Shown here one piece after another: positions 10,658 to 38,246 of a stretch of 64,000 bases of DNA. The notes beneath the pieces were generated by a model. The model worked only from the letters and a program-made list of their open reading frames with translations. It had not been told where the DNA came from and did no database searches. Position 1 is the stretch's first letter, and each line of letters opens with the position of its first letter. The DNA lies in NCBI RefSeq assembly GCF_009914755.1, contig NC_060940.1; one strand, given 5' to 3'. The DNA comes from the human T2T-CHM13v2.0 reference genome, Homo sapiens. The translations under genes were made by a program, and so were the position numbers.

Positions 10658-10771
10658 TTAAGATAAGATGGCATTAGAGCACCCAATACCAATGAAATTC
10701 ATGCTGATAACCCTTTTCAAAGCAGCGGCATCTTGATGCAAGTCTTTGTATTCACACAGCCGTGACATAGC
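10658..10771 (-). CDS. CCNYL1B: Cyclin Y-like paralog exon 10 (last coding): [37 protein letters not shown]
   Basis: Acceptor tttcctag; homologous to CCNYL1 AISRLCEDKD...NFIGIQRSKAILS*; TAA at 10658-10660. Confidence 0.85.
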
Positions 10772-10823
10772 CTAGGAAAGTAAGTCAAAGAGAAAACAGG
10801 TACAATTTTAAAAAGGGCTCCAA

Positions 10824-11117
10824 CTTTTTTTTTTTCGAGATGGAGTCTTGCTCTGTTGCCCAGGCTTGAGTGCAGTGGCACGATCTCGGCTCACTGCAAG
10901 CTCCGCCTCCCAGGTTCACACCATTCTCCTGCCTCAGCCTCCTGAGTAGCTGTGACTATAGGCGCCCGCCACCATGCCCAGCTAATTTTTTGTATTTTTA
11001 ATAGAGATGAGGTTTCACCATGTTAGCCAGGATGGTCTCGATCTCCTGACCTCGTGATCCTCCCTCCTCGGCCTCCCAAAGTTCTGGGATTATAGGCCTG
11101 AGCCACCGTGCCCGGCC
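10824..11117 (-). mobile_element. AluY-type SINE in the last intron, about 50 bp from the acceptor
   Basis: AluY-type motifs (gcaagctccgcctcc, gttagccaggatggtctcgatctcc); flanking gggctcca target-site duplication. Confidence 0.9.
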
Positions 11118-11270
11118 GGGCTCCAGCATTTTTTAAAAGGCATCACTGATGAGAAGCCACACATGCAGATTCCTTTAGATGGTCCCTTTGCAACTGCTTT
11201 GGCTGAGGTTTACACTGCCAGGTTCTGAGGATGCTACTCCCTGCCCATTCACTAAGGTGATCTCCTTTAA

Positions 11271-11310
11271 GGGCTATGAATAGATTGCCAGGGCTATGAA
11301 TAGATTGCCA
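11271..11310. repeat. Perfect 2 x 20 bp tandem duplication (gggctatgaatagattgcca)
   Basis: Seen directly in the sequence. Confidence 0.9.
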
Positions 11311-12166
11311 GAGCCAAGAGGAACTTACTTTATTAAGTTATTTTAAAATTGGGCTCATCGCTTGATGATAGTCACATAAAAAATAAAATAGGACTCCCAA
11401 AGATTTCAAGAGTATTGTGACAAGCTCCTAACAACAATATCTGTTACCTGTGCACTTGTTCCTTCAATGTAATAAACATGCACTTGTGCCAAAAAATCGA
11501 TTTACTCAGTGATTCAAATTCTACCAAATTCTTGTTAGTTACTATATACTCAAAGCAAATTTTAATGAGACAGGTTTGTTCTGGGCTATTTGGAACATCC
11601 AAGAAGTCTAATGACTGAAGCACCATAAGGTGCTACTTTACATGCACATTGTGGTAGAAAAATGTATTATTCTAAAGTATCACCAAGATACCAGAGAAAG
11701 TGCCAATTTTATATATGTCTATTTCAGTTGTAATTTTCCTGTATACTCACCAAGGGTCAGAAGCCATAAATCTTACATTACCCCATGAAAGTTACCATTT
11801 TCATTAAAAACCCATGTCCTTCCTACAGCCAGTACTTGAAACACTGGCACCTTATACAGTCTAAGTACAAGTCTCTCAGCCACTACTGCTTTGTCTAATA
11901 AACTCATGGGACTGCACCGTGATATATACGGTAGACAATGACATAAATTTGCAAACTGTGTAAGTAAAAGACAGTCAAGAGTGGTAACTGCATTGTGTAT
12001 ATAGGTATAATTAAGAATACAATTGCATTTATTCAAGCATTGTTGTATGAACGGATAGAGGTTAAAAACAAAGCCCATTAAAATCAGATTAAATTTAATT
12101 AAAAATATTCTGAATTATGGTCATAGCAGAGAGAATATCAATACATTTTTAAGAATATGGATCATT

Positions 12167-12455
12167 GGCCTGGCGCAGTGGCTCACGCCTGTAATCCCAG
12201 CACTTTGGGAGGCCAAGGTGGGCAGATCACCTGAGGTCGGGAGTTCGAGACCAGCCTGACCAACATGGTGAAACCCAGTCTCTACTAAAAATACAAAATT
12301 AGCTGGTCGTGGTGGCATATGCCTGTAATCCCAGCTACTCGGGAGGCTGAGGCAGAAGAATTGCTTGAACCCAGGAGGCAGAGGTTGTGGTGGGCCGAGA
12401 TTGCACTCCAGCCTGGGTAAAAAGAGTGAAACTCCGTCTCAAAAAACAAAAAAAA
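12167..12455 (+). mobile_element. AluS-type SINE
   Basis: Full dimer with A tail; TSD taagaatatggatc on both sides. Confidence 0.9.
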
Positions 12456-35095: not shown

Positions 35096-36485
35096 CAGGA
35101 CAGATGAGAAATTTAGCTAATAAAAAATTTACCTATTGTATATCTGAACCCCTAAGCAGTAGTGTTTTCTGATTCTACATTTACACATAGCTTACTTTCA
35201 TTACCAAGATCTAATAGCTGACAGCTCTAAGAACCAGTTTCTGGCCAGGAGCCAGTCTTTAGATGCACTAGAATCCCTGCAAGCATCCAATGACTGATCG
35301 GTCGTCTACTAATATGTTACTGAAAAAATAAACAGGTCTTTACACAACTGAAAAGTAGCCTAGCTTAACTCAAATGTTAACATGAGTGTGCCAACCTAAA
35401 TGAACTTGGTATCCTCAGGACACAAAATCATTTCATTCTAATACAGGTCCAAAGAATAAAAGCTACAAGGGGGACTTGGGCCACACTTTGTTCCCTACAA
35501 TGCCTCCTTCTTTGAAGTTGAGCTGGTCTCACTGACACACATTTCTCACTGCTGAAGAGACAGGGGCATGGGGTAGGTTTTCTTCCACTTCCATACACTC
35601 TATGTGTGAGAAGCCCATGGCTCTGGAAGAAACTGAGAAATACAACAATCCTAACCAGAAGTTACCAGCTTGAGACAGGCAAAGTCCATACAAACTATGA
35701 AAATGCAGGGGAGAAACCCATTTTTTATTGTGCTGCATTACTTCAGATGTTATTATAGAAACCCCACTTCTTGTATTCTTGCTGTTGAAAACAACTGAAA
35801 AACATGGTGTATGGCTTTTTTGAAAAAACAGTAAGATTTAGCAGAATGTTACAAAAAAATAAGCAGGAGTACAGAAAACTCCTACAGTTCTAATTCTCAT
35901 CCTAAAACAAGCAGGATGTGGAAACTTTACACTAGTTTCACACACTAAGGCTAACCTGGAAAACAGCACAGGCCATGTTTACATTTCCATTACATTCGAA
36001 TGAAAAAGTTCTGAGTAGCATGAACATGGATGTGACAGGCTCATGCGGTTAGAGCACTGTGTAAAAAGGAGGCCAAAATCACGGATCCAATCTAGAACAA
36101 CAGATTCTTTTGATTTGTTCAAGTGAACTCCAAGCTGTAGCCTAAATCTTATCACTCATCATTAACATGTACTCTTTGGAGCAAGGGAAAAATGGGAAAG
36201 ATGTATGAAGAAAAAGGCATACATCCATGACTACTACACCAAATCATGTGGCCAATTAATTGCATTGATAAAAATGTCATCAAACGTGGAGACATAAAGC
36301 CTGCATGTTTCCATGAACAGTGTCAACTAAAGGAAATTATGTCACATATTAAAATAAGACAAGTAAATATATAAAAAGTTGAAATTTTTTTAACTAATAT
36401 CTGAGTTCCTCTAAATACTTTCTGTAATACATGAAACAGAAAGTTTGTAGTTTTTTGCTTGGAGGAAGAAACAATATTGTCTTAC

Positions 36486-36545
36486 CACTCATTTGATATT
36501 TTCTCAGGAAGAGTGTGCTTTCCCCTGGACAGTCAGAAGCAAAAT
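36486..36545 (-). CDS. CCNYL1B: Cyclin Y-like paralog exon 2: (N)FASDCPGESTLFLRKYQMS; 5 codons shorter than CCNYL1 but in frame
   Basis: 60 bp, ctctacag|...|gtaaga; homologous to [26 protein letters not shown]. Confidence 0.85.
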
Positions 36546-36992
36546 CTGTAGAGGAAGAAGGAAAAATGTGATAATTTAAGTGAGTAGAAAAGATTCTTTT
36601 TAAAGCTACACATCCATTTTAATCACTTTTAAGAGTCTTGAGAAAAGTTTTTAGTGATAAATGTAAAGAAAATAAAGGCCACAATGTCCCAATTCTACTG
36701 GAGAATGCAAAAATCACAGAAGTTCTCCACGTATGTGGAATAAAACCAGGCTGTGTCTGGGACTTCATTTTAGAACTTGCACCTAAATAAACTGATGCCA
36801 CTTTTAGATGAATCATACACACGCCCTCCTCCTTCTACTTATCAAATATACCCACCCTCCTCTATGCTGCTATTACCAGCGCATTTCAGGGAAAGTCTCA
36901 AGCAGCAAGTGATGCTGTGGTCAATTACTGTCAGACACCGGCTCAATATAGCAAATATGTTAAAATAAAGAGCTGTTTTGGGCAAAAAAACA

Positions 36993-37180
36993 ATTTTTTA
37001 AAGAGACAGGGTCTCACTCTGTTGCCCAGGCTGGAGTGATGCAATGGTGCGATGGAGCCAGCATAGCTCACTGAAGCTTCAAACTCCTGGGCTCAAAATA
37101 TCCTCTTGCAGCTGAGACTATGGGTGCAAGCCACCATACCTGGCTAATTTTTAACCCTTTTTTTTTGTAGAGACAGGGTG
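36993..37180 (-). mobile_element. Partial Alu (right arm/FRAM-like)
   Basis: gagacagggtctcactctgttgcccaggctggagtg... Confidence 0.7.
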
Positions 37181-37870
37181 ATACATGAGACGTACATGAA
37201 AATGTGTTGTAAATCCTAAAGAATGATATAAAGAGTCTATTTTGGGCTCTCATCCAACACTACCCATCTACTACCTAGTGTGTAAAACCACTCCGAGGCC
37301 TACCTTACACCACCAAACGAGGAAAAACTTTCACAAGTACTTGCATGCTTTGTGTATAAAGGTACAATTCATTCACATACTATCTTTGTTCATTCTTTCA
37401 CGATTTTTTAATATTCCGAGAGTACAGTACTTTCCAGCAACAAAGCCACATTCATCATGAAGCTTAATTATTCAAACGTTTAAATAAATTAAGAGGTCAA
37501 CCAATGTTTAAACAGAAGAGCTGTAAGACACTTCCTCTATAGCAATGAAATCTGTAGCATACATTTTCTATTTTGAAAACTTAGTTTCTGCCTAGCCTTG
37601 GGGGATGAGAAAGGGGCCAGAACTGGGCACTGGGGTAGGGAGGAGGAGAGAAACCACCAGATGCTACAGGGAAAAAAAATTGGTTGCAGGGGGGAGGTGG
37701 GGGACGTAGGCACGAGGCAAGGCCAGTCCTCCTGCCTGGTGCCTGGGCCTAGGAAACCTGGCTAGGGGCAGGAGGGAGGAGTCCGAGGCTGTGGATGCCT
37801 CTGGGGGGACCTTGGGACAGCGGCTGCCAGAGGCTCACCTGAGGGCAAACACTATCAGTCGCCTCCTTAC

Positions 37871-38246
37871 TTTTGGGCATCTCCTGGTCACTGATGTGTT
37901 GCAGGTCATGGCCCTCGCGGGCTCCGAAATCCGACTGGGCAGGCTCCACAGCAGTGGGGTGTGGGGATTTTTTTTTTTTTTTACTGCCACCTCTGCCTCC
38001 GTGAGGTTATAGCTGCAGGGCGGTTCCGCCCACAGCACCCTGCGCTGGCTTTGCTTGGGGCTGGCATCAGGGAGCAGCATGTTCCATCTGCGGCGCCTCC
38101 GCTCCTCTCTGCCTTGGCCTACACCTTTGCTTGACGCTGCCTCATAGATGTCAGCGCTGCAGGACAGCTCCCCAGACCTCCTGCGCTGGCCCCGCTTGAG
38201 GCTGGCGTTGGTGCCCAAGCAATAGCTCAGCGTGGGCTATCCCCAT
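37871..38246 (-). CDS. CCNYL1B: Cyclin Y-like paralog exon 1: internally duplicated and frameshifted 5' part, intact 3' part (AVEPAQSDFGAREGHDLQHISDQEMPK); in-frame internal ATG at 37880
   Basis: Homologous to CCNYL1 MGNTLTCCVSPNASPKLGRRAGSAELYCASDIYEA...VEPAELDFGEGEGHHLQHISDREMPE; donor aaaa|gtaagg at 37870. Confidence 0.75.
37968..37982 (-). repeat. A15 mononucleotide tract inside exon 1
   Basis: 15 T on the + strand, counted directly. Confidence 0.95.

What the first reader, a model, noticed from the sequence alone, without database searches (positions are those of the whole stretch)
10658..37880. Diverged cyclin Y paralog with an open 285-aa spliced ORF and all splice sites intact
Seen: manual splicing (10+60+35+101+36+52+120+167+163+114 = 858 nt) gives 285 aa plus stop, with no stop or frameshift. 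All 9 introns are GT-AG, and the length differences from recalled CCNYL1 (including the 5-codon loss in exon 2) keep the frame. This holds despite many amino-acid changes and many intronic insertions. Known: CCNY/CCNYL1 activate CDK14-18, the CCNYL1-CDK16 pair is needed for spermatogenesis, and CCNY has a short isoform starting at Met55 that lacks the myristoylated N-terminus. Inference: this may be a coding, fast-evolving, non-membrane-anchored cyclin rather than a dead pseudogene.
Basis: partly seen in the sequence, partly recalled or inferred. Interest (0 to 1): 0.75.

Follow-up and report, generated by a model that had tools for sequence, protein, structure and literature searches.

The report
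Recently broken human cyclin Y-like gene
The open 285-codon reading frame in human CCNYL3 is real, but it looks like the surviving rear part of a roughly 400-codon cyclin Y-like gene that other primates are predicted to keep whole and that two small insertions broke at its front end in the human lineage.

Summary
ATG 37880, the ten exon pieces and the TAA ending at 10658 give 858 nt, 285 aa plus stop, with nine GT-AG introns.

The frame needs a splice form that differs from RefSeq NR_158158 in two ways. It uses the ancestral exon-1 donor at 37870 rather than 37838. It also skips the 119-nt exon at 30476-30594. The RefSeq structure leaves only 27 codons open from that ATG.

The ORF is a remnant. 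The ancestral ATG GGG start at 38246 is cut off by a net +4 nt change at 38239-38235. An A15 run at 37982-37968 causes a second frame switch. The bonobo predicted protein reads through both sites in one frame. Of 28 primate relatives fetched, 19 start MGNTLS, and several are about 400 aa.

The human branch carries 8 private replacements in 273 codons, against 4 in bonobo. Several hit residues that are invariant in the other primates.

The ORF also lacks most of the N-terminal segment that the cyclin Y structure paper calls critical for CDK16 binding.

Best reading: a transcribed pseudogene inactivated recently in the human lineage. The gene family was, and elsewhere probably still is, a fast-evolving coding gene.

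The parts
37871..37880 (-). It ends at the ancestral exon-1 donor (GT at 37870-37869).
   Evidence: The donor is homologous to the CCNYL1 exon-1 donor. The chr16p processed copy and the bonobo protein join exon 1 to exon 2 here.
36486..36545 (-). Coding exon 2, 60 nt. It is 15 nt shorter than in CCNYL1 and CCNYL2.
   Evidence: The deletion is shared with the processed copy.
34102..34136 (-). Coding exon 3, 35 nt.
30476..30594 (-). RefSeq-only exon of 119 nt. It breaks the frame and is not part of the 285-aa ORF.
   Evidence: The homologous stretch of the CCNYL1 intron is flanked by AA and CT instead of AG and GT. The exon is absent from the processed copy. With it, the ORF from ATG 37880 is 68 aa or 27 aa, depending on the donor.
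28651..28751 (-). Coding exon, 101 nt. It holds the first 14-3-3 serine motif; the serine before it is Gly in human only.
25638..25673 (-). Coding exon, 36 nt.
22452..22503 (-). Coding exon, 52 nt.
21746..21865 (-). Coding exon, 120 nt.
17520..17686 (-). Coding exon, 167 nt, the core of the cyclin box.
   Evidence: phmmer match to Cyclin-Y chain 9r2i_D at E=1.6e-16. Cyclin_N at E=0.047, below the cut-off, on this 55-aa piece alone.
12654..12816 (-). Coding exon, 163 nt.
10658..10771 (-). Last coding piece, 114 nt, with the TAA at 10660-10658.
8587..10657 (-). 3' UTR.
   Evidence: Aligns to the processed copy over 2029 nt with 153 substitutions (7.5%) and 10 indel events.
38241..38246 (-). Ancestral start, ATG GGG (Met-Gly of the lipidation motif). 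It is now followed by a 31-codon dead-end frame.
38235..38239 (-). Net +4 nt change directly after ATGGGGA. It shifts the frame and creates an in-frame TAG.
   Evidence: Absent from CCNYL1 and from the processed copy. The bonobo protein reads MGNTLSYC straight through.
37968..37982 (-). A15 run, the second frame switch in the ancestral coding part of exon 1.
   Evidence: It adds 14 nt relative to the processed copy and CCNYL1. Bonobo has four Lys here in frame, and tblastn switches frame across it.
37839..37870 (-). The 32 nt that RefSeq adds to exon 1 by using the downstream donor (GT at 37838-37837). This breaks the frame.
   Evidence: The homologous site in CCNYL1 reads GC and is not a donor.
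38078..38080 (-). Upstream ATG opening an 83-84-codon ORF that overlaps ATG 37880 out of frame. Before the A-run change it was in frame with the cyclin ORF.

Best explanation
CCNYL3 is an intron-containing duplicate of CCNYL1. For most of its history it was a real, fast-evolving, lipid-anchored cyclin Y-like gene of about 400 codons. Its relatives in other anthropoid primates are still predicted to be intact.

In the human sequence the front of the coding region is broken twice in exon 1. There is a net +4 nt change right after the ancestral ATG GGG. There is also an A-run that is 2 nt too long to stay in frame. The 285-codon ORF is what remains open downstream of those breaks.

The curated transcript also uses a newer donor 32 nt downstream and a newly exonised 119-nt intron piece. 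Each of these breaks the remaining frame.

Shown here: the ORF, the two frame switches, the splice differences, the intact predicted primate proteins, and the human-private replacements. Inferred: that the locus no longer makes a working cyclin, and that the breaks arose after the split from the bonobo lineage.
For: (1) Bonobo P0005 residues 4-94 match window 38233-37961 in one frame at 96.7% identity. Residues 88-124 match 37979-37869 in another frame at 97.3%. The switch lies at the A15 run. Its first three residues, MGN, fall in a third frame at ATG 38246.

(2) Both changes are absent from CCNYL1 and from the chr16p processed copy.

(3) Of the 28 primate proteins fetched, 19 start MGNTLS. 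Lengths include 401 aa (orangutan, Tibetan macaque), 408 aa (siamang) and 442-461 aa (marmoset, capuchin).

(4) Across 273 codons compared between human and bonobo there are 13 differences. Eight are human-private, 4 are bonobo-private and 1 is ambiguous. The human-private ones include E>K where 27 of 27 others have E, P>S (27/27), S>G (23/24), I>V (23/24) and Y>H (22/23). Neutral expectation for the human branch is 3.6-4.8. The human tip in the protein tree is 0.034 against 0.017 for bonobo.

(5) CDS divergence from the processed copy is 7.1%, equal to the 3' UTR divergence of 7.5%.

(6) The RefSeq structure leaves 27 codons open from ATG 37880, and six upstream ATGs precede it.

(7) The ORF starts at the equivalent of cyclin Y residue 49. 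The 2026 cryo-EM paper calls residues 38-53 a critical part of the CDK16 interface.

(8) A 2025 preprint states that CCNYL2 and CCNYL3 are typically characterised as pseudogenes (passage read).
Against: - The 285 codons and all 18 splice dinucleotides are intact. By my estimate this has a probability of about 0.02 if the stretch had been neutral for the whole branch since the split from the processed copy. It is more likely if inactivation was recent.
- Most functionally tested cyclin Y residues are kept: the equivalents of K225, W227, E253, S269, Y271, S100 and S326.
- The N:S test cannot separate the hypotheses. The human-lineage branch has 16:7 and the processed copy 19:8, but the stem, where the frame was clearly maintained, has 82:28.
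- Bonobo also has 4 private replacements, near the neutral expectation, so relaxation may predate the human-bonobo split.
- Only one human haplotype was seen. An A15 run is likely to vary in length between people (my inference, not tested).
- The primate proteins are automated gene predictions, not verified proteins.
Confidence: 0.8

Rival explanations
1. Human CCNYL3 still makes a soluble cyclin Y-like protein of 285 aa, without a lipid anchor, from ATG 37880. It does so through a minor splice form that uses the ancestral donor and skips the 119-nt exon.
For: - The ORF and all its splice sites are intact, with a joint chance probability of about 0.02 under whole-branch neutrality.
- This exact splice form existed in the germ line once, because the chr16p processed copy has it.
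- The cyclin-box residues tested in the structure paper are mostly kept.
- A protein-interaction database lists CCNYL3 with PPARD, CUL1 and NCOA1 (passage read).
Against: - There are two frame breaks upstream.
- The curated transcript breaks the frame twice, and six upstream ATGs precede the start, three of them opening ORFs that overlap it.
- The ORF lacks cyclin Y residues 38-48 of the CDK16-contacting segment, and the D52 equivalent is Asn.
- Human-private changes hit otherwise invariant residues.
- Full-text searches for CCNYL3 (5 papers), 'cyclin-Y-like protein 3' (1 paper) and P0C7X3 (0 papers) returned no report of a peptide. I read passages in 3 of the 5 CCNYL3 papers.
Confidence: 0.08
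2. The locus now acts only as RNA. It would be a transcribed pseudogene whose spliced transcript has a regulatory role, and the open frame is irrelevant.
For: RefSeq holds a curated spliced non-coding transcript (the gene table given with the task). A skin expression study lists CCNYL3 among the most down-regulated genes in diabetic skin (passages read).
Against: Nothing here shows any constraint on the RNA. The 3' UTR has diverged 7.5% from the processed copy, the same as the CDS. Differential expression is not evidence of function.
Confidence: 0.07
3. The gene is a polymorphic pseudogene. In haplotypes where the A-run is one base longer or two bases shorter, the upstream ATG at 38080 would be in frame with the cyclin ORF. 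That would give a protein of about 350 aa that regains the CDK16-contacting segment but not the lipid anchor.
For: - The frame arithmetic works. ATG 38080 is in the ancestral frame upstream of the run, ATG 37880 is in the frame downstream, and the two differ by 2 nt.
- Bonobo carries the run in frame as four Lys.
- Long mononucleotide runs commonly vary in length (general knowledge, not tested here).
Against: Only one human haplotype was available. The +4 nt change would still remove the Met-Gly start. The private replacements at invariant residues remain.
Confidence: 0.05

Closest known systems
CCNYL1 (cyclin Y-like 1, chr2)
   Same: The exon-intron plan is the same, with 9 of 9 shared internal boundaries at homologous AG/GT sites. 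Introns are collinear and alignable at about 77% identity. The cyclin box is the same, and the Lys/Glu pair, the Trp and the Tyr tested in cyclin Y are kept.
   Different: Coding identity is only about 76%, with dN 0.24-0.26 and dS 0.41-0.52. Exon 2 is 15 nt shorter and the last exon 3 nt longer. The first coding stretch is partly duplicated. The Met-Gly start is cut off by two frame changes. CCNYL1 itself sits on a very short branch.
Cyclin Y (CCNY); solved with CDK16 and 14-3-3 (PDB 9r2i, 9r2n)
   Same: A single cyclin box (exon-9 piece E=1.6e-16). Both 14-3-3 serines are present. The K225, W227, E253, S269 and Y271 equivalents are kept.
   Different: The ORF begins at the equivalent of residue 49, so residues 38-48 of the CDK16 groove segment and the lipidation motif are missing. 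The D52, D229 and Q261 equivalents are Asn, Asn and Glu. The residue before the first 14-3-3 serine is Gly.
[quoted passage not shown]
   Same: Bonobo P0005 is identical at 260 of 273 aligned codons. It shares the short exon 2, the Lys run and the C-terminus, and it is sister to the human sequence with support 0.96.
   Different: These run from MGNTLS through the whole gene in one frame (19 of 28), and the human sequence does not. The names are the sources' own. In the papers I read, 'CCNYL1B' denotes a human chr2 locus, so the name is not proof of orthology.
CCNYL2 (chr10) and an unnamed multi-exon copy on chr19 at 30.5 Mb
   Same: Both are diverged, intron-containing cyclin Y-like copies that branch from the CCNYL1 side of the tree.
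   Different: They form a separate clade (support 100). They are about 32% different from CCNYL3 at the DNA level.

Membership tests
Cyclin Y family (CCNY / CCNYL1) | A single cyclin box related to cyclin Y | tested here: met
   The exon-9 piece matches Cyclin-Y chain 9r2i_D at E=1.6e-16 over 54 residues. Relatives carry PF00134 and PF27989. Pfam on the 55-aa piece alone is below the cut-off (13.9 bits against 23). The whole spliced protein was not submitted to Pfam.
Cyclin Y family (CCNY / CCNYL1) | N-terminal Met-Gly myristoylation signal and nearby Cys for palmitoylation | tested here: not met
   ATG GGG at 38246 is followed by a net +4 nt change and a 31-codon dead end. The 285-aa ORF starts MPK. 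The motif is present in 19 of 28 primate relatives.
Cyclin Y family (CCNY / CCNYL1) | N-terminal segment (cyclin Y residues 38-53) that fills the CDK16 groove | tested here: not met
   The conserved motif is still encoded upstream of ATG 37880 but has no in-frame ATG. The ORF starts at the residue-49 equivalent.
Cyclin Y family (CCNY / CCNYL1) | Two 14-3-3 binding phosphoserines (S100, S326) | tested here: inconclusive
   Both serines are present. The residue before the first is Gly in human only (23 of 24 others have Ser), and the context of the second differs from cyclin Y. Phosphorylation and binding cannot be tested with these tools.
Cyclin Y family (CCNY / CCNYL1) | Cyclin-box residues shown to matter for CDK16 activation (K225, W227, E253, Y271) | tested here: met
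   All four equivalents are kept in the translation. Numbering uses the 5-residue tag offset shown.
Unprocessed (duplicated) pseudogene | Intron-containing copy of a parent gene | tested here: met
   Homologous exons and collinear introns with CCNYL1.
Unprocessed (duplicated) pseudogene | The ancestral reading frame is disrupted | tested here: met
   There are two frame switches in exon 1 relative to the bonobo protein, the processed copy and CCNYL1. The downstream 285 codons are not disrupted.
Unprocessed (duplicated) pseudogene | Loss of purifying selection | tested here: inconclusive
   There are 8 human-private replacements against a neutral expectation of 3.6-4.8, five of them at sites invariant in at least 22 of 23 others. 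However, bonobo has 4, protein data only were available, and N:S ratios do not discriminate in this family.
Unprocessed (duplicated) pseudogene | No protein product | not testable with these tools
   No RNA-seq, ribosome profiling or proteomics data are held here.

The most novel reading that the evidence does not exclude
Humans have recently lost the full-length form of a lipid-anchored cyclin Y-like gene that other anthropoid primates keep. The leftover 285-aa frame is still translated from a minor splice form as a soluble cyclin that keeps both 14-3-3 serines and the cyclin box but cannot fill the CDK16 groove. It would then act as a human-specific decoy for 14-3-3 or for CDK14-18, rather than as an activator.
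Probability: 0.06. Interest if true: 0.6.

Novelty: already known. Interest (0 to 1): 0.3.

Why it matters
The open frame is real, but it is not good evidence for a living human cyclin.

Two things go beyond the annotation:
1. The CCNYL3-type gene was a real gene that kept its frame through more than a hundred substitutions. It is predicted to be intact from New World monkeys to bonobo. The human state therefore looks like a recent, lineage-specific loss of a primate cyclin, not an old dead duplicate.
2. The breaks are small and lie at the front. One of them is in a mononucleotide run. Whether all humans carry them can be checked directly in pangenome data.

If the loss is confirmed as fixed and human-specific, it adds a cell-cycle-kinase regulator to the list of genes lost on the human lineage.

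Tried and rejected
- My first reconstruction used the RefSeq donor. It gave a frame opening with TTG and a first ATG in exon 2 (264 aa). I corrected this once the ancestral donor was recognised.
- The N:S comparison between the human-lineage branch (16:7) and the processed copy (19:8) first looked like proof of neutrality. I no longer rely on it. The stem has 82:28 while its frame was maintained, and the processed copy may itself have been a working retrogene for a time.
- I treated the chr16p copy as a simple dead retrocopy of CCNYL3. The primate tree places it near the base of the catarrhine sequences with weak support, so it serves only as an old relative, not as a dated event.
- Tandem Repeats Finder did not detect the diverged partial duplication in exon 1. 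That duplication rests.
- phmmer with the 29-aa exon-1 piece found nothing in the PDB. The CCNYL1 exon-1 translation gave the needed numbering.
- Pfam on single-exon pieces was nearly blank.
- Cyclin Y exons upstream of exon 9 were not recovered, so cyclin Y roots the DNA tree on 3 exons only.
- An IQ-TREE run on the primate proteins timed out. I used FastTree instead, after dropping 5 of 32 rows with under 80% coverage.
- No structure or complex prediction was run, because the spliced protein would have had to be typed as a joined sequence.
- Supplements of the papers cited were not opened.

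
Full report
**1. The observation**

The RefSeq exons of CCNYL3 all have AG/GT borders. That is ATG at 37880, 285 codons and TAA ending at 10658, with no internal stop and nine GT-AG introns.

This is not the RefSeq transcript, in two respects:
RefSeq uses a donor 32 nt further on.
- RefSeq has an extra 119-nt exon at 30476-30594.

With the RefSeq structure, ATG 37880 opens 27 codons and the longest ORF is 121 aa. 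With either single change the frame still breaks.

**2. Which splice form is ancestral**

I searched the window's own genome and fetched the paralogous regions. From these I rebuilt CCNYL1 as a 359-aa ORF in ten coding exons.
- The CCNYL1 exon-1 donor aligns with the GT at 37870. The RefSeq donor site reads GC in CCNYL1.
- The CCNYL1 intron stretch homologous to the 119-nt exon is flanked by AA and CT, so it is not an exon there.
- A contiguous, intron-less copy lies on chr16 at about 23.776-23.780 Mb. It joins exon 1 to exon 2 at the ancestral donor, lacks the 119-nt exon and shares the 15-nt exon-2 deletion.

The two RefSeq features are later additions at this locus.

**3. The frame was once longer**

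In exon 1 the ancestral ATG GGG lies at 38246-38241. Two changes separate it from the cyclin frame:
- A net +4 nt change at 38239-38235 follows directly and creates a TAG.
- At 37982-37968 there is an A15 run. It adds 14 nt relative to both CCNYL1 and the processed copy.

The frame homologous to the CCNYL1 N-terminus runs between these two sites without further breaks. Taking both changes out of the count leaves 358 nt from the ATG to the donor. That is 119 codons plus one base, the phase exon 2 needs. The ancestral ORF was therefore about 401 codons.

Exon 1 also holds a partial tandem duplication of the first coding stretch. There are two units here and three in the processed copy.

**4. Primate relatives**

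A database search with the 55-aa exon-9 piece, set to longer proteins, scored 46 of 50 candidates at E<=1e-5. [quoted passage not shown]

I fetched 30 of them. Of these, 28 were primate gene models and 2 were short unnamed ORFs.
- 19 of the 28 start MGNTLS.
- Lengths of 401 aa occur in orangutan and Tibetan macaque, matching the length inferred above.

Bonobo P0005 (393 aa, an isoform without the 36-nt exon) maps on the window as follows:
- Residues 4-94 align to 38233-37961 in one frame at 96.7% identity.
- Residues 88-124 align to 37979-37869 in another frame at 97.3% identity.
- The run of four Lys sits at the switch.

So the bonobo prediction reads through both places where the human sequence changes frame. 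These are automated predictions. I had no primate DNA.

**5. Constraint**

*Old history.*
- Introns of CCNYL3 and CCNYL1 are collinear at about 77% identity, K about 0.27. Some Alu cross-matches are included in that figure.
- In the DNA tree CCNYL1 sits on a very short branch and CCNYL3 on a long stem of 0.22.
- On that stem I count 82 nonsynonymous and 28 synonymous changes, a ratio no lower than that of dead copies.
- Even so there is no stop, and every indel is a multiple of 3.
- Simulation gives P(no stop) between 0.04 and 0.0016 for 89-179 neutral substitutions.
- Replacements avoided family-invariant positions: 34 of 122 against 51 of 115, Fisher P=0.01.

The gene was coding and fast-evolving.

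*Recent history.*
- Polarised with CCNYL1, the human-lineage branch has 23 substitutions (16 N, 7 S) and the processed copy has 27 (19 N, 8 S). Eleven are ambiguous.
- CDS and 3' UTR have diverged from the processed copy equally, 7.1% and 7.5%.
- Because the stem shows the same N:S while its frame was kept, I do not treat the ratio as decisive.

*Primate alignment.* This is more telling. Across 273 codons, human and bonobo differ at 13.
- 8 are human-private: R11G, S46G, I94V, S98P, Y119H, E142K, P186S and R224C.
- 4 are bonobo-private and 1 is ambiguous.
- E142 and P186 are invariant in 27 of 27 other sequences.
- The neutral expectation for the human branch is 3.6-4.8.
- The human tip in the protein tree is twice the bonobo tip. 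That tree came from FastTree, with 5 of 32 rows dropped for coverage.

Bonobo's own four changes are near the neutral expectation, so relaxation may have begun before the split.

**6. Would the 285-aa product work like cyclin Y?**

The PDB holds cyclin Y with CDK16 and 14-3-3 (9r2i, 9r2n). I read the introduction passages and section 8 of the paper describing it (PMC13168255). It reports three things:
- Both S100 and S326 must be phosphorylated for 14-3-3 binding.
- K225, W227, E253, Y271 and S269 matter.
- Residues 38-53 are a critical part of the CDK16 interface, with D52 contacting CDK16 R150.

Numbering was anchored through the PDB alignments. In CCNYL3:
- The two serines and the five cyclin-box residues are kept.
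- The D229, Q261 and D52 equivalents are changed.
- The ORF starts at the residue-49 equivalent, so it lacks residues 38-48.
- Six ATGs lie upstream of the start in the annotated exon 1. Three of them open ORFs that overlap it.

**7. Chance**

If the 858 nt and their splice sites had been neutral for the whole branch since the split from the processed copy, I estimate:
- 0.31 for no stop with the ATG kept;
- 0.23 for no frameshift, using the UTR's 0.065 indels per substitution, 80% of them not multiples of 3;
- 0.30 for 36 untouched splice-site bases.

The product is about 0.02. This fits a gene that stayed under selection for most of that time and was inactivated late, as the intact bonobo prediction suggests.

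**8. Literature**
- 'CCNYL3' occurs in 5 papers of the library, and none is about its evolution or its protein. That rests on the listing plus passages read in three of the five.
- One preprint says CCNYL2 and CCNYL3 are typically characterised as pseudogenes.
- One paper notes database interactions with PPARD, CUL1 and NCOA1.
- 'P0C7X3' gave 0 papers. That accession is from my recall.
- 'CCNYL1B' gave 3 papers, 2 listed. Both of those use the name for a human chr2 locus or a duplicated region.
- I found no paper describing the human-specific frame breaks in these searches. Supplements were not opened.

**9. Verdict**

For the human locus the evidence favours a recently inactivated, transcribed pseudogene (confidence 0.8). 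A translated truncated protein is a minor possibility (about 0.06-0.08).

Noticed in passing
L002 (own genome, chr16 about 23,776,000-23,779,900, + strand): An intron-less copy of a CCNYL3-type mRNA, about 92% identical over the CDS. It has one stop, three frameshift deletions and a deletion over the stop codon. It has three N-terminal repeat units against two in CCNYL3. A siamang predicted protein of 408 aa (P0018) ends with the same read-through tail, so this copy may be an intact retrogene in gibbons.
   Followed up: partly
L033, L038-L041 (own genome, chr19 about 30,485,800-30,513,300, + strand): A further multi-exon cyclin Y-like copy, sister to CCNYL2 (support 100). Four of the five exons examined have AG/GT borders. 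The exon-9 homologue has AT in place of the acceptor AG and is 1 nt short.
   Followed up: partly
own genome, chr10 about 38,221,860-38,243,370: Two exon-sized matches. One has the same score, identity and query span as a CCNYL2 exon, which suggests a partial duplicate of CCNYL2.
   Followed up: no
L028 (chr19 about 21.89 Mb) and L029 (chrX about 64.25 Mb): Two processed pseudogenes of CCNYL1, each about 93-94% identical over the whole 1080-nt CDS, with frameshifts and stops.
   Followed up: partly
P0007, P0008: Two primate or metagenome-collection gene models carry a VPS35 domain. P0008 carries it fused to a cyclin domain; P0007 lists only the VPS35 domain. In human, a VPS35 pseudogene lies just before CCNYL3 according to the gene table. 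The duplicated block may therefore hold both genes, and the models may be read-through artefacts.
   Followed up: no
window 37800-38600: Exon 1 and its surroundings are GC-rich (0.61), but CpG observed/expected is only 0.39. That is below the usual CpG-island threshold, as expected for a promoter that has decayed or was never an island.
   Followed up: no
own genome, chr2: The papers read use the name CCNYL1B for a human locus near CRYGD and DYTN on chr2. The own-genome search with CCNYL1 exon 9 found only one chr2 match. The database sources give the same name to primate CCNYL3-type proteins, so the name is used inconsistently.
   Followed up: partly
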